DNA of 64,000 nucleotides from a virus (IMGVR_UViG_3300033121_002167:1-64000), one strand, 5' to 3'. Positions 32,542 through 53,466 are shown, counted from the first letter of the stretch. Notes: generated by a model not told the origin, from the letters alone. Made by a program: numbers and translations.

Positions 32542-33474
32542 TCATTTAGGTATGTTGAACATCGATGCCATGAGGTCAACGCTAAGATTCTTGTGCTTTG
32601 CTTCGACTTCTACGGCGATTGTATCATCCCTAAGCCCACGGAGCTGACAATCAGGAACATGATGGATGTAGTCGCTATGCTTCCTCCTGTCAATAAATGA
32701 ACCGTTCAACAATGAAGGTTCAGTGTTTGATATGTGCTGAAGAGGTATCACACCTTTCGGCCATGTCAACTGTGTTACATTGAACGCTTCGTCGGCAGTT
32801 AGCTCGCCATCGTTGAACGTATGATGGTGCGAATCCCACACGATCGGCACGCCAGTTTCCTTGTAAACGGGTAGCAAGTCAACGACAGAGTACGCTGACT
32901 CATCGTTCTCGAGCGTGAGCCTAGACCGAACAGACGGTGGCAACGAACGGATGCCATCAACGAGCCGTGAATGACGGTCACCTTTGCCACCGTGAATGTT
33001 GATCGCTGCATGTGGAGATCGTGGAAGACCCATGGCATCAAACACCCAGCCGTGAAGAGCCAGCTCGTTGAAAGAGTTTTCAACGACGCGGTCAGAATCG
33101 GACGATATGACGCAGAACTGGCCTGGGTGCGTTGTCAATCGCAAACCACGTGAGATTGCTGCTGCACCAGCACGCTGCAACTCTGCACGAACCGCAGGAT
33201 TATCCCACGTATCGCGAGGCACTTTATCAGCAAGCGGGAACAGAGACGACGAAATTCGAAATAGACGAATCCCCGCTGCTGACACCTTGGGTATCATCGC
33301 AGCGAGGTTCTTGATGTTGCTGATGTACGTAGCACGGATCTGCTCGTCAGTGTACGCGCCGCGTTGGAACCTTCCCAGCTGCAACGTGCGTTCAGACATC
33401 TCATTGACGAGAACAGTGTTACCCGTGCGTGGTTGCACGTGAGACTTAAGCCAATGGCAGCAAACGCCTAGCAT
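32542..33474 (-). CDS. uvdE: UV-damage endonuclease (UvdE family)
   Basis: 310 aa TIM-barrel nuclease pattern; 'LGVCCHWL' start, conserved His/Glu clusters (HGG..,'WDSHHH'). Confidence 0.7.
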   Translation of the reverse strand: MLGVCCHWLKSHVQPRTGNTVLVNEMSERTLQLGRFQRGAYTDEQIRATYISNIKNLAAMIPKVSAAGIRLFRISSSLFPLADKVPRDTWDNPAVRAELQRAGAAAISRGLRLTTHPGQFCVISSDSDRVVENSFNELALHGWVFDAMGLPRSPHAAINIHGGKGDRHSRLVDGIRSLPPSVRSRLTLENDESAYSVVDLLPVYKETGVPIVWDSHHHTFNDGELTADEAFNVTQLTWPKGVIPLQHISNTEPSLLNGSFIDRRKHSDYIHHVPDCQLRGLRDDTIAVEVEAKHKNLSVDLMASMFNIPK

Positions 33475-33507
33475 TGATTCAATCTTACATCTGCGCAGAT
33501 CAAAGTT

Positions 33508-33744
33508 TCACTTCTTCTTGTTACCAAACACTAGCTTTTTCAGCATCTTGTTGAACTCTCTAGCCTCACTGACCTTTGCAATACCAATGTTCCCAGGATA
33601 CTGTAGGCGCAGTTGAGCGTAAAATTTCTTCAACTGCGCGGGCGTAACAGGCTTCAAGGGCGTTGGTTTAAATTCTCCTTTTTGTTCAGACTGAACCCAT
33701 TCTAGCTTCGTAGTAAGATCACTAAGGTTTCTAGCGGTGGACAA
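33508..33744 (-). CDS. hypothetical small protein
   Basis: 78-aa ORF overlapping 3' end of AAA gene by ~40 nt. Confidence 0.3.
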   Translation of the reverse strand: MSTARNLSDLTTKLEWVQSEQKGEFKPTPLKPVTPAQLKKFYAQLRLQYPGNIGIAKVSEAREFNKMLKKLVFGNKKK

Positions 33745-35594
33745 AAAGGGGCGTCGCCCTCGGGGCCGCCTCCTTCTTCGTTCTCTTCACCCTCAAGATC
33801 TTCAGTGATAGGACCGTTATCGGGCGGATCAGTCTTCATAGAGTGATCATCAAGTGCTGTCACTTCAGGCGCCGGATCATCTTCGTACTTCTCGAGCCGA
33901 GCGACGCGCTTCGAAAGCTCGATCGTAGACTCAGACGCCTCAACCGCAGACATGAACCGACGCCTCTTCACGTACTCCTGGATGAAGGCGATGGGCCAGT
34001 TCTTGACAAGCTCGTAAGCTTCATCAGCGTAAGTCCCCAGGATCGACCTGACAACGTCGCCATCCATAGTCTTCACGAACAACATCTCATCGAAGCGACC
34101 AGGACGAAGGATTGCCTCATCAAGGCTGTTGCGATTGTTTACGGTTGCGATGACAAGCTTCACGTGCCTCTGGAAGAACTCAAGAGTCTCAAGCAGCTGC
34201 GCCTGCGCATGTGCTCTGTCAAAGTCATCCAAGATGATTGCATCGGGTTCAAAGATCGTGATAGCCTCAAAGAGCGTAGAGCTCTCAAGGTTAGCAACAT
34301 CCTCAACGCGAATTCGGAAGCTGCGCATGCCAAGGTTCTCCACGATGGTTCGAGCCATCGTAGACTTTCCAGTCCCCGGCGGACCGTACAGCATCACCGA
34401 TCGCGGCACGTCAGCGTCGATGCAGCGCTTCAAGTATGCTGCGTACGAAGTTGCTCTCTCAGATGCAAGGGGATGAAAGGCATCGTCAGATTCAAACACG
34501 ATCCTAGAATCATCGTCAGACGTTCCGACGCGCTTGTTCTGCCTCATGACGAGGTTTGAATCTTTCAAAGATTCCCACAAGATCTTCTTGATGAGAGCTT
34601 GAGCCTCTTTCAGCTTCGCAGTGTCAACGTAGATGTTGCCGGGAACGTTGAGGCGGGTGTTCATCGTGTAACCCATCTTGATGCCATCAGCATCGATCAT
34701 GCGAATGATCGTAGCATCATCGTTGGTGCGAATGTTCTCGTAAGGATAGCGACTGACGACCTTGATGATCGTAGAGTTGAAGTCCCTGCTGTAAGGTGCA
34801 GACCACTCATCGCCAGAGAAGAAATCATCTCCCCACACTTCAAACTGCTCAATGAGCACTTTGGAGATCGAGAAGCTGCTCTTCAAACCGTTCCACCAGG
34901 TGGGATCTTCCAAGAAGGGCGTTGATGCTTGAAAGATGTCAGTTCCAACGTGGATGACTTGCTTCACCTTGCTCACGTTGAAGAAATCTCTAACTTGCGT
35001 CACTAGCGTCTTGTTCTTTTCAGTCATTTTGTCTCGTGGTGCTAAAAGTTCAACGTTGTAACGAACTCGCTTGTTTGCTTTTGACGTGAAAGTCACGTCG
35101 CACTCTTCGTACTTCCCGTCTACGATCGCTGCCCCCACGACCTTTGTAACGTGCTCATAATCTTTATCGACGTACGTCATGATGAAGAATGCTCGACCCG
35201 TTGTCAGGGGCGCAAGCTTCTTGATGACCACGTTCTCAAAAGAATTATTCGCAGTGTTTTCAACATCCGACCAGTAGATCTTTGGGATGCTGATGAACTC
35301 GTAACCTGCTTGCGGGTAAGCGCAATGCTTGCAGAAACGAGCGTCATTATCGTTCATTGCCTTACACTGGCTGCACTCTTTTGCTTCGCCGCAATTGTCA
35401 TATACATCAACAACATCGTCAATGAATGTGCAGCACATGTCGCTGTGCTCTTCTTGGATGTTCCTTAGATCTGACACTTTCACTTTCAAAGTGCTGTGGA
35501 ACGTCGTGATGCTATCGATCACAGATTTCTTGGCTTTGGTGCTTGGTGCCATAAGTTGAAATGTACCCTGCAGATCAGCTATTTTACAAGCCAC
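33702..35594 (-). CDS. classic-clade AAA ATPase with N-terminal zinc-ribbon-containing region
   Basis: Walker A 'GPPGTGKST', Walker B 'IILDDFD', second region of homology 'ILRPGRFD'; 'CSQCKAMNDNDARFCKHC' zinc ribbon. Confidence 0.7.
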   Translation of the reverse strand: MACKIADLQGTFQLMAPSTKAKKSVIDSITTFHSTLKVKVSDLRNIQEEHSDMCCTFIDDVVDVYDNCGEAKECSQCKAMNDNDARFCKHCAYPQAGYEFISIPKIYWSDVENTANNSFENVVIKKLAPLTTGRAFFIMTYVDKDYEHVTKVVGAAIVDGKYEECDVTFTSKANKRVRYNVELLAPRDKMTEKNKTLVTQVRDFFNVSKVKQVIHVGTDIFQASTPFLEDPTWWNGLKSSFSISKVLIEQFEVWGDDFFSGDEWSAPYSRDFNSTIIKVVSRYPYENIRTNDDATIIRMIDADGIKMGYTMNTRLNVPGNIYVDTAKLKEAQALIKKILWESLKDSNLVMRQNKRVGTSDDDSRIVFESDDAFHPLASERATSYAAYLKRCIDADVPRSVMLYGPPGTGKSTMARTIVENLGMRSFRIRVEDVANLESSTLFEAITIFEPDAIILDDFDRAHAQAQLLETLEFFQRHVKLVIATVNNRNSLDEAILRPGRFDEMLFVKTMDGDVVRSILGTYADEAYELVKNWPIAFIQEYVKRRRFMSAVEASESTIELSKRVARLEKYEDDPAPEVTALDDHSMKTDPPDNGPITEDLEGEENEEGGGPEGDAPFCPPLETLVILLRS

Positions 35595-35598
35595 AGCT

Positions 35599-52463: not shown

Positions 52464-52646
52464 GAAGAGACACGACGTAATCGATCGCCCAGCGCTGAGG
52501 TTTGAACAAGAACGTTGCGTACTCTTGAGGAGTCATTCCCAGGTGCGTCATCAAGTCGTTTGGGCAACCTGCGATGAACCAATCGGCGATCTCATCATCG
52601 ATTCCTTCGAGGATGACTTTGGCTCGCGATTCCAGGCTCGTGTCGT

Positions 52647-52898
52647 TCATTTGAGAGGGCACTCCAACTTTTTGGCAGTTGCATGAAGATCATCGATCGA
52701 CATAGACGACTGAATCTCTCTGTTGAACCTCCACTGTCGATTTGCCATCAACGAGTACCTGCCAGTGTAATCAGCGCGGGTGATGAAGCAATAGTCTGTT
52801 CGACCGTCAGCTTTGATGACGAAGACGCTGCATGCGATCAACCCGGCCACGATAACAACGATGAAAAGAGTCGTAAGAGTGGCGAAAATATCATCCAT
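52647..52898 (-). CDS. small membrane protein
   Basis: N-terminal TM 'LFIVVIVAGLIACSVFVI'. Confidence 0.3.
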   Translation of the reverse strand: MDDIFATLTTLFIVVIVAGLIACSVFVIKADGRTDYCFITRADYTGRYSLMANRQWRFNREIQSSMSIDDLHATAKKLECPLK

Positions 52899-52908
52899 AG
52901 AGAAATCC

Positions 52909-53466
52909 TCATTTTGCTTTGACTACCTTTGAACTTGTTCGATCTCGTGGTTCAACCCACTGGACACCGAGCAAATCGAAGAAATCTCGCTCCTCAGGAG
53001 CGTGAACTTGCGCGCCATCTGGCCGCGTTGGCAAGCAACCCAGCATCCGGCCGCCGCCAGAAACTTTCTTCCAAATCGAAAACATCTTCGGAACAAACCC
53101 ACCGTGGACGTTACCGTTCGGAGCCGTTGCAGACCCAGTTCTCATGCACAGCAACGAGCCCCAGTTCGCCGGCGTTGCCACGAAGACATCTAGCTTGATT
53201 CCTTCTTCAAGGAGGAGGCGCAGGTACTTCGCACCAACCTTTGGTGGCCATTCGATGATGTCAGGAACGCCAGGCTTGATGAACTTTCCTCGCGACCGAA
53301 GAGCACCAAAGAGAGCCTCGTAATCATCAACAATGATGACAAGCTCGATGTCTTTGACTGTCTCCTTCTCACGGCGGACTGACCCAGCGATCTCTGCTCG
53401 CTTCACTGCTGGTCCGATGAGCTTGAGCAAGGATTCTCCGATGCTACGAGCCTTCGACAGTTCCAT
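52909..53466 (-). CDS. minimal family-X DNA polymerase (Pol beta palm+thumb only; ASFV Pol X-like)
   Basis: 'AGSVRREKETVKDIELVIIV' ~ ASFV PolX 'VGSLRREEKMLNDVDLLIIV'; 'LDVFVATP','EERDFFDLLGVQWVEPRDR' ~ Pol beta C-terminus; 185 aa. Confidence 0.7.
   Translation of the reverse strand: MELSKARSIGESLLKLIGPAVKRAEIAGSVRREKETVKDIELVIIVDDYEALFGALRSRGKFIKPGVPDIIEWPPKVGAKYLRLLLEEGIKLDVFVATPANWGSLLCMRTGSATAPNGNVHGGFVPKMFSIWKKVSGGGRMLGCLPTRPDGAQVHAPEERDFFDLLGVQWVEPRDRTSSKVVKAK

What the first reader, a model, noticed from the sequence alone, without database searches (positions are those of the whole stretch)
32542..53466. Unusually complete virus-encoded base-excision / UV repair toolkit
Within 21 kb on one strand lie six DNA-repair genes:
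- UvdE (32542..33474);
- a zincless Fpg/Nei (37130..37945);
- an MBD4-like HhH-GPD glycosylase (38250..38696);
- a FEN-type 5'-3' exonuclease (44985..46178);
- Rnl2-type ligase (46992..48014);
- an ASFV-like minimal Pol X (52909..53466).
Together these cover lesion recognition, incision, gap filling and flap removal. This resembles the ASFV and mimivirus repair sets more than a typical phage. It suggests adaptation to oxidative or UV-damaged genomes.
Basis: partly seen in the sequence, partly recalled or inferred. Interest (0 to 1): 0.65.

Follow-up and report, generated by a model that had tools for sequence, protein, structure and literature searches.

The report
Phage DNA-repair module with mini PolX
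A large uncultured bacteriophage carries, on one strand, a conserved set of DNA-damage repair enzymes built around a very small family-X DNA polymerase; such a combination is known from giant viruses of eukaryotes but was not found in any sequenced cultured phage.

Summary

The grouping is not chance.
- PolX, FEN and MBD4-like stay together in at least 15 IMG/VR contigs at about 50% identity.
- UvdE, Fpg or Rnl2 join them in some contigs.
- A 160-kb relative has all but Rnl2.
- pN/pS is 0.03-0.21.

Among 50,697 GenBank phage records no organism group with a PolX hit appears in the other three hit lists.

Caveats:
- FEN and Rnl2 are not repair-specific.
- The window has no Xth/Nfo AP endonuclease and no DNA ligase; UvdE may supply AP incision.
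- Mini-PolX is common in metagenomes, about 3,000 clusters.
- The UV/oxidation adaptation is untested.

Verdict: real, conserved, uncharacterised. It is a new variant of virus-encoded excision repair, of moderate interest.

The parts
32542..33474 (-). UvdE (UV damage endonuclease). Proposed to nick 5' of UV photoproducts and, by analogy with fungal UVDE, to incise AP sites and clean 3' ends.
   Evidence: PF03851 at 3e-52. TIGR00629 scores 134.2, above the 124.45 cut-off. PDB UVDEs match at 3e-25. The metal ligands H116, H161, E189, D214, H217, H247 and E291 are conserved in at least 95% of 29 sequences. pN/pS is 0.09.
37130..37945 (-). Zincless Fpg/Nei bifunctional glycosylase/lyase for oxidised bases.
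   Evidence: H2TH and Fapy N-terminal domains are above cut-off; Fapy_C scores 25.8 against a cut-off of 27. MvNei1 (3A45/3A46) matches at 3e-34 over residues 1-271. P2 and E3 are present. The RTTYW finger Arg is conserved. The stretch aligned to the finger region (about the last 35 residues) holds a single Cys.
37946..38275 (-). 109-aa protein of unknown function. It is the conserved neighbour of the MBD4-like gene.
   Evidence: It lies adjacent to the MBD4-like gene in at least 11 loci, including two (L023, L031) where the pair is inverted together. It has no Pfam or PHROG hit. The AF2 model is poor, pLDDT 50. pN/pS is 0.03.
38250..38696 (-). Stand-alone MBD4-like HhH-GPD glycosylase. Predicted to remove T, U or 5hmU opposite G.
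   Evidence: The MBD4 glycosylase domain matches at 1.7e-19. D128, equivalent to human D560, is invariant in 27 sequences. pN/pS is 0.08.
40467..41039 (-). NUDIX hydrolase that usually lies between FEN and the MBD4-like gene in relatives. Possibly sanitises the nucleotide pool.
   Evidence: PF00293 at 3.6e-20. It co-occurs with the MBD4-like gene in 10 loci. Its substrate is not assignable.
44985..46178 (-). FEN / T4-RNase-H-type 5'-3' nuclease with an uncharacterised C-terminal extension of about 130 aa. Proposed to remove flaps.
   Evidence: PF02739 at 9e-17. T4 RNase H matches at 6e-7. The acidic residues D17, E61, E119, D121, D122, D143, D145, D183 and D186 are conserved. It lies within a few kb downstream of PolX in 19 loci, directly adjacent in several.
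46133..46816 (-). GIY-YIG/NUMOD3 homing endonuclease inserted between the ligase and FEN. It is a mobile element, not part of the pathway.
   Evidence: Pfam. It is absent in L001, where the ligase and FEN genes overlap by 14 nt.
46992..48014 (-). Rnl2-type ligase. It is a candidate nick sealer, but its substrate is uncertain.
   Evidence: PF09414 at 2e-12 and phrog_548 at 1e-37. T4 Rnl2 matches at 5.7e-6, including the C-terminal domain, and motifs I, III, IV and V align. It lies directly between PolX and FEN in L026.
52909..53466 (-). Minimal family-X DNA polymerase with palm and thumb only. Proposed gap-filling enzyme.
35599..36513 (-). ADP-ribosylglycohydrolase lying between UvdE and Fpg. 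Its membership of the module is uncertain.
   Evidence: PF03747 at 1.4e-33. Among the fetched loci it was found only in the near-identical strain.

Best explanation
The window comes from a large uncultured tailed phage. Its near-identical IMG/VR relative is a 140-kb contig, and more distant relatives reach 200-300 kb.

The phage carries a self-encoded short- and long-patch excision-repair module. The proposed steps are:
1. Lesion recognition and incision. UvdE nicks 5' of UV photoproducts. The zincless Nei excises oxidised bases and cuts the strand. The MBD4-like glycosylase removes T or U opposite G and leaves an AP site.
2. End preparation. UvdE, a TIM-barrel relative of Nfo, incises AP sites and cleans 3' ends. 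This replaces the missing Xth/Nfo enzyme.
3. Gap filling. The 185-aa PolX fills the gap. It has no 8-kDa dRP-lyase domain, so it would displace the 5' end.
4. Flap removal. The adjacent FEN cuts the flap.
5. Sealing. The nick is sealed by the Rnl2-type ligase, by a DNA ligase encoded elsewhere in the genome, or by the host ligase.

Shown: family membership, intact catalytic residues, conserved synteny and purifying selection. Inferred: substrates, the order of the steps, the AP-endonuclease role of UvdE and the identity of the sealing enzyme.
For: - Family assignments and active-site residues hold for all six proteins.
- Synteny is conserved. PolX, FEN and MBD4-like lie within about 6 kb in at least 15 distinct IMG/VR contigs whose PolX is only 50-57% identical.
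- UvdE sits directly beside PolX in L006, L018 and L019.
- Rnl2 sits between PolX and FEN in L026.
- Fpg, UvdE and Cpn60 lie together in L086.
- Every gene except Rnl2 is present in IMGVR_UViG_3300035670_013237.
- Without the homing-endonuclease insert, the ligase and FEN genes overlap by 14 nt.
- pN/pS against near-identical strains is 0.03-0.21.
- Each gene is rare in 50,697 phage records: UvdE in 107, Fpg in 31, MBD4-like in 17, PolX in 10. The organism groups in the four hit lists do not overlap except for Bacillus phage SP-15, which has UvdE and Fpg.
- UVDE enzymes are reported to cleave AP sites and remove 3'-blocking groups (PMC8307549).
- From established knowledge: S. pombe UVDE-initiated repair uses the FEN homologue Rad2 for flap removal.
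Against: - No activity has been measured.
- The FEN is of the replication type (T4 RNase H) and would be expected in any large phage.
- Rnl2-type enzymes seal RNA nicks or nicks with a 3'-ribonucleotide, not DNA nicks. The gene is in the module in only about 4 loci.
- No DNA ligase, Xth/Nfo, PNKP or clamp was found in the window.
- In the window the genes are spread over 21 kb and interspersed with unrelated genes: a chaperonin, an AAA+ ATPase, a protease, a lysozyme-like protein and unknowns.
- In the roughly 40-kb phage contigs that carry a mini-PolX, its neighbours are methyltransferases and terminase, not repair genes. PolX therefore does not always work in such a module.
- The second catalytic carboxylate of the PolX is Glu, not Asp.
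Confidence: 0.6

Rival explanations
1. The genes are a loose collection rather than a pathway. UvdE, Nei and the MBD4-like enzyme each act alone as auxiliary lesion-incision enzymes and hand over to host Pol I and LigA. FEN is the phage's Okazaki-fragment nuclease. Rnl2 repairs RNA, for example tRNA cut by host anticodon nucleases. The mini-PolX has another role. The clustering only reflects a shared early nucleic-acid-metabolism region.
For: FEN is closest to T4 RNase H. The ligase matches only RNA-ligase families. Rnl2 is not conserved in the module. Mini-PolX occurs without repair neighbours in roughly 40-kb phage contigs. The window version is interrupted by many unrelated genes.
Against: PolX, FEN and MBD4-like stay adjacent across at least 15 diverged contigs while the genes between them change. 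UvdE or Rnl2 repeatedly insert exactly at the PolX-FEN junction. Four individually rare genes co-occur.
Confidence: 0.25
2. The module maintains a modified genome or counters host defence. It would exist mainly to undo damage tied to phage DNA chemistry or host immunity, not environmental UV or oxidation. The MBD4-like enzyme would remove T:G arising from deamination of 5-methylcytosine in a modified genome, or from host deaminases. The ADP-ribosylglycohydrolase would reverse DNA or protein ADP-ribosylation. The NUDIX enzymes would clean the nucleotide pool. PolX and FEN would patch the resulting sites.
For: MBD4-like genes occur in the 5mC phage Xp12 and its relatives. In Xp12 the gene lies 0.8 kb from the thymidylate-synthase-like and dCMP deaminase genes, with one HAD hydrolase gene between. 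An ADP-ribosylglycohydrolase and three NUDIX genes lie inside or beside the module.
Against: No thymidylate-synthase-like, dCMP deaminase or DNA methyltransferase gene was found in the window or in any clade locus (and the Pfam scans). UvdE and Nei point to UV and oxidative lesions. Among the fetched loci the glycohydrolase was found only in the near-identical strain.
Confidence: 0.12
3. The region is not viral. It would be a cellular or plasmid segment, or a chimeric assembly, so 'virus-encoded' would be wrong.
For: No capsid, terminase or tail gene was identified inside the 64-kb window.
Against: - Contigs 97-99% identical, and dozens of related ones, are classed as viral in IMG/VR.
- Independent Logan assemblies give the same gene order.
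- Several proteins hit PHROG families.
- There are four homing endonucleases and an intein that differ between strains.
- There is a 14-kb array of tiny overlapping ORFs.
- Homologues of the large proteins occur in the 462-735-kb huge phages LR756500, LR756501 and LR756503.
Confidence: 0.03

Closest known systems
ASFV base-excision repair set (PolX O174L, class II AP endonuclease E296R, DNA ligase, PCNA-like protein)
   Different: The window has no Nfo-type AP endonuclease, no DNA ligase and no clamp. The phage set adds two glycosylases, UvdE and a FEN, which ASFV lacks. The PolX has DxE instead of DxD. By sequence it is closer to Thermus PolX and Pol lambda. The Foldseek match to the BFVD model of ASFV O174L, a 135-residue entry, is weak (E 2.7e-3).
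Mimivirus and other NCLDV BER sets (MvNei1, MvNei2, PolX, AP endonuclease, UDG, ligase; PgV PolX-ligase)
   Same: The phage Nei is most similar to MvNei1 among solved structures (3e-34, full length) and shares its zincless finger. Both combine a Nei-type glycosylase with a PolX.
   Different: NCLDV PolXs are full Pol-beta-like cores, or fusions, of 250-600 aa. NCLDVs encode a dedicated AP endonuclease and a DNA ligase. To my knowledge an MBD4-like glycosylase and UvdE are not part of the described NCLDV sets; this rests on memory and was not tested.
UVDE-initiated alternative excision repair of S. pombe (Uve1, Rad2/FEN1, polymerase, ligase)
   Same: UvdE plus a FEN-type flap nuclease plus a gap-filling polymerase is the logic of that pathway. 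UVDE also acts on AP sites and 3' blocks (PMC8307549).
   Different: The polymerase here is a mini-PolX rather than a replicative polymerase. The system is viral. The Tth UVDE carboxylated Lys229 position is Leu in the phage enzyme.
Single repair genes of cultured phages (T4 DenV; UvdE of Erwinia/Dickeya/Aeromonas jumbo phages; Fpg of Bacillus phages SP-10, SP-15 and G; MBD4-like ORF of Xp12; 318-aa PolX of Rhizobium Cuauhnahuacvirus)
   Same: The same families are present in phages. UvdE is already noted as sporadic in jumbo phages (PMC7824862).
   Different: These genes occur singly in those phages; the most is two, in SP-15. The Rhizobium phage PolX is annotated at 318 aa, Pol-beta-core size, with the query matching only its C-terminal ~160 aa. 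Among those records no organism group with a PolX hit also appears in the UvdE, Fpg or MBD4-like hit lists.
PolX2 group (Nucleic Acids Res 2026, PMC12926913)
   Same: It is a PolX lacking the N-terminal 8-kDa and PHP domains with a conserved polymerase active site. It is found in bacteria, archaea, eukaryotes and viruses, and no member has been studied experimentally.
   Different: PolX2 is described with an extra C-terminal alpha-helical domain. The phage protein ends with the thumb at 185 aa. Whether the two groups are the same lineage was not tested.

Membership tests
Family X DNA polymerase (PolX) | Pol-beta-type nucleotidyltransferase palm with the hG[GS] motif, the triphosphate-binding GSxRR and three catalytic carboxylates | tested here: met
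   G28, S29, R31, R32, D39, E41 and D93 are invariant in 34 sequences. They align with GSARR...DLD...D of Thermus PolX. The second carboxylate is Glu rather than Asp.
Family X DNA polymerase (PolX) | PolX-specific thumb (C-terminal) subdomain following the palm, and an overall fold closer to PolX than to other nucleotidyltransferases | tested here: met
Family X DNA polymerase (PolX) | 8-kDa dRP-lyase domain and HhH fingers subdomain of the canonical Pol-beta core | tested here: not met
   The protein is 185 aa. Its profile aligns only to Pol lambda residues 390-573 of 575. The architecture is therefore minimal, as in ASFV PolX.
Family X DNA polymerase (PolX) | Template-directed DNA gap-filling activity | not testable with these tools
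   This needs a biochemical assay.
MBD4-type HhH-GPD glycosylase | HhH motif followed by a Gly/Pro-rich loop and the catalytic Asp, with full-length similarity to the MBD4 glycosylase domain | tested here: met
   PF00730 at 2.4e-10. MBD4 chains match at 1.7e-19 over residues 8-142, while the next family (Mig, EndoIII) is at 1e-4 or weaker. D128 is invariant, and R36 aligns with the human Arg plug (residue numbers derived from the alignment).
MBD4-type HhH-GPD glycosylase | N-terminal methyl-CpG-binding domain | tested here: not met
   The protein is 148 aa and consists of the glycosylase domain only.
MBD4-type HhH-GPD glycosylase | Specificity for T, U or 5hmU opposite G | not testable with these tools
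   This needs a biochemical assay.
Fpg/Nei glycosylase, zincless (NEIL1/MvNei1) type | N-terminal Pro nucleophile and Glu, an H2TH domain, and a C-terminal finger without the four-Cys zinc site | tested here: met
   The protein starts MPEG. H2TH scores 4e-16 and the Fapy N domain 1e-12. Fapy_C scores 25.8 against a cut-off of 27. MvNei1 matches at 3e-34 with RTTYW conserved and a single Cys in the stretch aligned to the finger region, about the last 35 residues.
UvdE / UVDE | TIM-barrel UVDE family signature and metal-binding His, Asp and Glu residues | tested here: met
   PF03851 at 3e-52. TIGR00629 scores 134.2, above 124.45. The ligands are conserved in 29 sequences. The position of Tth Lys229 is Leu.
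FEN / 5'-3' exonuclease (T4 RNase H, Pol I N-terminal type) | PIN-like N-terminal domain with two clusters of acidic metal ligands | tested here: met
   PF02739 scores 61.7, above 34.3. The aligned acidic residues are conserved.
FEN / 5'-3' exonuclease (T4 RNase H, Pol I N-terminal type) | H3TH / SAM-fold DNA-binding domain | tested here: inconclusive
   PF01367 scores 17.4 bits against a cut-off of 40 and covers only 36 residues.
Rnl2-type RNA ligase | Covalent nucleotidyltransferase motifs I (KxxG), III, IV and V, plus the Rnl2 C-terminal domain | tested here: met
   PF09414 scores 47.9, above 27. phrog_548 matches at 1e-37. T4 Rnl2 aligns over residues 43-302, with KLHG, FGEW, EGLV and KAKG matching the motifs. 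The E-value is only 5.7e-6.
Complete virus-encoded BER pathway (ASFV / NCLDV type) | Dedicated class II AP endonuclease (Xth or Nfo) | tested here: not met
   No such Pfam hit was found among about 70 ORFs scanned across the window. UvdE is the only candidate substitute.
Complete virus-encoded BER pathway (ASFV / NCLDV type) | ATP- or NAD-dependent DNA ligase | tested here: not met
   There is no DNA-ligase Pfam hit and no KxDGxR motif in any of the six frames of the window. The rest of the genome was not available.

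The most novel reading that the evidence does not exclude
The module may be a 'ribo-patch' repair system analogous to bacterial LigD end-joining. The phage mini-PolX family has Met-Arg (M108, R109, near-invariant) where Pol beta and Pol lambda have the Tyr-Phe sugar steric gate. It could therefore fill gaps with ribonucleotides. That would create the 3'-ribonucleotide nick that an Rnl2-type ligase seals, and would explain why an RNA-type ligase is translationally coupled to FEN and lies next to PolX. 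If true, a clade of large phages would repair its DNA through a transient RNA patch using the smallest known polymerase. The thousands of uncharacterised mini-PolX genes in phage metagenomes would gain a function.
Probability: 0.1. Interest if true: 0.75.

Novelty: new variant of a known kind. Interest (0 to 1): 0.5.

Why it matters
Multi-enzyme excision repair encoded by a virus is described for giant viruses of eukaryotes such as ASFV, mimivirus and PgV. Phages are known mostly for single repair genes such as T4 DenV or a sporadic UvdE.

Here a clade of large environmental phages keeps two glycosylases, UvdE, a flap nuclease and a 185-aa PolX in conserved synteny. This has three consequences:
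1. It gives the first genomic-context clue to the role of a very large, unstudied family of mini-PolX proteins, about 3,000 clusters at 50% identity. A related PolX2 group was called enigmatic in 2026.
2. It suggests UvdE can stand in for the missing AP endonuclease.
3. It offers small, probably robust enzymes for biochemistry and biotechnology: a 148-aa MBD4-type glycosylase, a 185-aa polymerase and a zincless Nei.

It also raises the testable question of whether phage genome integrity outside the host, under sunlight, oxidants and deamination, selects for self-repair in large phages.

Tried and rejected
- Megablast of the 22-kb region against GenBank phages gave no match. No cultured close relative exists.
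- PHROGs gave nothing for PolX, the MBD4-like protein or most large neighbours.
- A single-protein scan of IMG/VR with the Fpg found only the near-identical contig, because the patterns were too specific. Fpg distribution in the clade rests on tblastn of the fetched loci only.
- The 5mC-genome idea was tested by searching the window and all 113 loci with the Xp12 thymidylate-synthase-like, dCMP deaminase, HAD and DHFR proteins. There was no hit in the clade. The idea is kept only as a minor rival.
- A hidden DNA ligase was sought with the KxDGxR motif in six frames and not found.
- The conserved MBD4 neighbour g109 had only one homologue in the k-mer-indexed search. The resulting AF2 model was unusable (pLDDT 50), so no fold search was run on it.
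- The afdb50 fold library was unavailable.
- NUDIX substrate assignment through NCBIfam was non-specific.
- Literature searches for a phage PolX/UvdE/Fpg/MBD4 repair module found nothing specific.
- I could not retrieve the rest of the 140-kb contig. The absence of a DNA ligase or AP endonuclease therefore applies to the window only.

Full report
**1. What is in the sequence**

Positions 30,000-64,000 of the window are an almost unbroken run of minus-strand genes. Each was tested against Pfam, PHROGs, NCBIfam and the sequences of solved structures.

- UvdE (32542-33474). It is unambiguous: PF03851 at 3e-52 and phrog_8420 at 2.5e-51. It scores 134.2 against the TIGR00629 equivalog, above the 124.45 cut-off. 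It matches the Thermus and Sulfolobus UVDE structures at about 3e-25. The metal ligands are conserved in 29 homologues. The carboxylated Lys229 of the Thermus enzyme is Leu here.
- Fpg/Nei (37130-37945). It starts MPEG, giving the catalytic Pro2 and Glu3. Its H2TH and N-terminal domains are above cut-off. Its best solved relative, over the full length, is mimivirus Nei1 at 3.2e-34 (3A46 is MvNei1). The RTTYW finger Arg is kept, and the stretch aligned to the finger region (about the last 35 residues) holds only one Cys.
- MBD4-like protein (38250-38696, 148 aa). It matches fifteen MBD4 glycosylase-domain sequences at 1.7e-19 to 5e-18 over residues 8-142. The next HhH-GPD families score 1e-4 or weaker. 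The catalytic Asp, D128 here and D560 in human by alignment, is invariant in 27 sequences.
- 5' nuclease (44985-46178). It passes PF02739 at 9e-17 and is closest to T4 RNase H at 6e-7. The acidic ligands are conserved, with one Asp replaced by Glu.
- Ligase (46992-48014). It passes PF09414 and matches phrog_548 at 1e-37. The only solved relative by sequence is T4 Rnl2 at 5.7e-6, with motifs I, III, IV and V aligned. The start is probably Met9 at 47990, because the orthologue called in an independent assembly is 332 aa.

**2. The PolX**

This was the weakest call. Pfam is sub-threshold: thumb 23.8 bits against a cut-off of 25, palm 13.4. PHROGs gave nothing. Other evidence settles it.

- phmmer finds Thermus PolX at 2.7e-6, with GSxRR...DxE...D aligned to GSARR...DLD...D.
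- A search of 5.8 billion proteins gave 53 homologues, nearly all 184-202 aa long. In 34 of them G28, S29, R31, R32, D39, E41 and D93 are invariant.
- The AlphaFold model built from that alignment has pLDDT 96.7 and pTM 0.90.
- Foldseek places the model on the palm and thumb of Thermus PolX and Pol lambda, with TMq about 0.7 and E about 1e-10.
- The family profile aligns to Pol lambda residues 390-573 of 575.

The protein is therefore palm plus thumb only. It has no 8-kDa dRP-lyase domain and no fingers domain. That is the ASFV PolX architecture, but there is no specific sequence kinship to ASFV. The Foldseek match to the BFVD model of ASFV O174L, a 135-residue entry, is weak.

**3. What the element is**

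There is no nucleotide-level match in 50,697 GenBank phage records. An IMG/VR contig of 140 kb (UViG_3300033069_001798) is 97-99% identical over the shared region. Several Logan assemblies give the same gene order.

The differences between these strains are mobile elements:
- a GIY-YIG gene between the ligase and FEN;
- a GIY-YIG gene at 57987-58832;
- a Ros/MucR-NUMOD3 gene at 62945-63925;
- an HNH intein inside a papain-like protease.

Other genes fit a large phage: Cpn60, IF-1, a KaiC/RecA-like ATPase, a tRNA-Leu, three NUDIX genes, an ADP-ribosylglycohydrolase and a 14-kb array of 54 tiny ORFs. Two large proteins have homologues in the 462-735-kb huge phages LR756500, LR756501 and LR756503.

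No structural gene lies in the window. The viral assignment therefore rests on these indirect points and on the IMG/VR classification.

**4. Is the grouping more than chance?**

Three lines of evidence say yes.

Rarity. tblastn against all GenBank phages finds:
- UvdE in 107 records, mostly Erwinia, Dickeya, Aeromonas and Vibrio phages, many of them jumbo;
- Fpg in 31, several of which are bacterial contamination;
- MBD4-like in 17, including Xp12-like phages;
- PolX in 10, all Rhizobium phages.

The Rhizobium phage protein is annotated at 318 aa, the size of a full Pol-beta-like core. The organism lists do not overlap, except that Bacillus phage SP-15 has UvdE and Fpg.

Synteny. A profile scan of IMG/VR found 346 loci encoding a mini-PolX. 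In the 29 loci whose PolX is 49-58% identical, many on contigs of 140-300 kb, tblastn with all window proteins shows a conserved block: g711, NUDIX, g359, g332, PolX, FEN, g154, NUDIX, MBD4-like, g109.
- FEN lies within a few kb downstream of PolX in 19 loci, counting the two loci of the near-identical strain, and directly adjacent in several.
- The MBD4-like gene lies within about 6 kb in 15 loci.
- UvdE sits directly beside PolX in L006, L018 and L019.
- Rnl2 sits between PolX and FEN in L026.
- Fpg, the AAA+ gene, UvdE and Cpn60 lie together in L086.
- The 160-kb contig 3300035670_013237 has PolX, FEN, MBD4-like, g109, Fpg, UvdE and Cpn60 within 13 kb.

Selection. pN/pS against the near-identical strains is 0.03-0.21 for every gene, on small counts.

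The window's version is the most spread out. About 5 kb of unknown genes and several mobile elements have been inserted into it.

**5. How it most likely works**

The composition matches UVDE-initiated alternative excision repair combined with long-patch BER.
- UvdE nicks 5' of UV photoproducts.
- The Nei-type enzyme removes oxidised bases and cleaves the strand.
- The MBD4-type enzyme removes T or U opposite G.
- No Xth/Nfo enzyme was found. UVDE enzymes share the Nfo fold and are reported to cut AP sites and clean 3'-blocking ends (PMC8307549). UvdE is therefore the likely link between the glycosylases and synthesis.
- The PolX lacks a dRP-lyase domain. The 5' residue is most simply removed as a flap by the adjacent FEN, as Rad2 does in S. 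pombe (established knowledge).

Sealing is the weak step. The only ligase is Rnl2-type, and the window has no KxDGxR motif in any frame. A DNA ligase may lie elsewhere in the genome, or host LigA may act. All substrate assignments and the order of steps are inferred.

**6. Rivals**

(a) Loose collection. FEN would be the replication nuclease, Rnl2 an RNA-repair enzyme, and PolX something else. In favour:
- in the roughly 40-kb phage contigs with a 33-38% identical mini-PolX, the neighbours are DNA methyltransferases and terminase, not repair genes;
- Rnl2 is seldom in the block.

Against: the persistent PolX-FEN-MBD4 adjacency.

(b) Modified-genome or counter-defence maintenance. The MBD4-like gene of the 5mC phage Xp12 lies 0.8 kb from its thymidylate-synthase-like and dCMP deaminase genes, with one HAD hydrolase gene between. 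Against this, no such genes occur in the window or in any clade locus.

(c) Not viral. This is unlikely, for the reasons in section 3.

**7. Comparison with what is known**

UvdE in jumbo phages is already noted (PMC7824862). Virus-encoded BER with a PolX is described for ASFV, mimivirus and PgV.

A PolX2 group was described in 2026. It lacks the 8-kDa and PHP domains, occurs in all domains of life and in viruses, and no member has been studied (PMC12926913). It is reported with an extra C-terminal helical domain, which the phage protein lacks.

The mini-PolX family itself is large. The profile search found 6,472 representatives at E 1e-3 or better and 3,048 at 1e-10 or better. The best 150 are almost all 155-230 aa long.

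I found no paper describing a phage module that combines PolX, an MBD4-like glycosylase, Nei and UvdE. The library covers open-access papers only.

**8. Verdict**

It is a real and conserved repair-type module that resembles the sets of giant eukaryotic viruses. It is less complete than stated, because it lacks an AP endonuclease and a DNA ligase. Two of the six genes are not repair-specific. The ecological claim is untested.

I rate it a new variant of a known kind, with interest 0.5.

The most novel reading still open is a ribonucleotide-patch mechanism. The near-invariant Met-Arg replaces the Tyr-Phe steric gate, and the Rnl2-type ligase gene overlaps the FEN gene by 14 nt in strains without the homing endonuclease. 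I give this about 10%.

Noticed in passing
window 19824-22511 (+): An 895-aa homologue of the eukaryotic major vault protein: MVP shoulder domain at 2e-30, vault repeats and Band_7. Its GC content is higher than the surroundings (0.57). Homologues of 41-45% identity occur in the huge phages LR756500, LR756501 and LR756503. Phage MVPs were reported in a 2023 preprint (10.1101/2023.11.10.566534), so this is a further example rather than a first.
   Followed up: partly
window 5500-19850 (+): A 14-kb array of 54 tightly packed tiny ORFs, median 77 aa, many joined by ATGA overlaps, covering 91% of the stretch. Several diverged tandem paralogue groups are present, for example 10157-11032 and 14331-15538, at 27-38% identity. 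Function unknown; it looks like an early-gene region.
   Followed up: partly
window 41651-43633 (-): A papain-family (C1) cysteine protease interrupted by an intein with an HNH endonuclease. The intein (about 42253-43449) is absent from the 97-99% identical IMG/VR strain (L005), so it is an actively mobile intein.
   Followed up: partly
window 39392-41039: A GIY-YIG/NUMOD3 homing endonuclease gene (39659-40543, + strand) sits between a full NUDIX gene (40467-41039) and a 3' NUDIX fragment (39392-39703). The full gene is 71% identical to the relative's gene and the fragment 96%. In the relative the two matches abut within about 560 nt, with no endonuclease gene between them. This looks like a homing event that brought in a foreign NUDIX copy and left a remnant of the resident one.
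   Followed up: partly
window 46133-46816 (-), 57987-58832 (-), 62945-63925 (-): Three further homing-endonuclease-type genes: GIY-YIG+NUMOD3, GIY-YIG+NUMOD1, and Ros/MucR zinc finger+NUMOD3. Each is present or absent between near-identical strains (L001, L005).
   Followed up: partly
window 37946-38275 (-): A 109-aa protein with a basic N-terminal tail and a predicted five-strand beta domain. It always lies next to the MBD4-like gene, even where the pair is inverted (L023, L031), and has pN/pS 0.03. It may be a DNA-binding partner of the glycosylase. The structure model was too poor to classify (pLDDT 50).
   Followed up: partly
L114 (Xanthomonas phage Xp12, MT664984.1) 5914-6396: The unannotated 'hypothetical protein' QNN97216.1 of the 5-methylcytosine phage Xp12 is an MBD4-like glycosylase. 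One HAD hydrolase gene separates it from the thymidylate-synthase-like and dCMP deaminase genes. This association between a T:G glycosylase and a 5mC genome seems not to have been described.
   Followed up: partly
window 33702-35594 (-): A 630-aa protein with a zinc ribbon (residues 72-91) and a C-terminal AAA+ domain that weakly resembles clamp loaders. It lies next to UvdE, and the adjacency is conserved in a 54%-identical relative (L086). Role unknown.
   Followed up: no
window 35599-36513 (-), 57472-57963 (-): An ADP-ribosylglycohydrolase (DraG/ARH family, 1.4e-33) lies inside the repair region, and a third NUDIX hydrolase lies upstream of PolX. They may relate to ADP-ribosylation-based host defence or NAD metabolism rather than to repair.
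   Followed up: no
window 27800-28309 (-), 30571-32196 (-), 1-756 (+), 1478-1561 (+): Cellular-type genes typical of very large phages: translation initiation factor IF-1, a Cpn60/GroEL chaperonin (at most 46% identical to any GenBank phage or bacterial copy), a KaiC/RecA-like ATPase fragment at the window edge, and a tRNA-Leu(TAA).
   Followed up: no
window 32542-33474 (-), residue 245: The phage UvdE has Leu at the position of the carboxylated Lys229 of Thermus UVDE. This position falls below the 95% conservation cut-off across the 29 phage homologues, while all metal-binding His, Asp and Glu residues are conserved.
   Followed up: partly
L034-L084 (IMG/VR contigs of about 35-55 kb): A second, large population of mini-PolX genes, 33-38% identical and sharing the DxE motif, sits in small phage genomes next to DNA methyltransferases and the terminase genes, with no repair genes nearby. 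Its role there is unexplained.
   Followed up: partly
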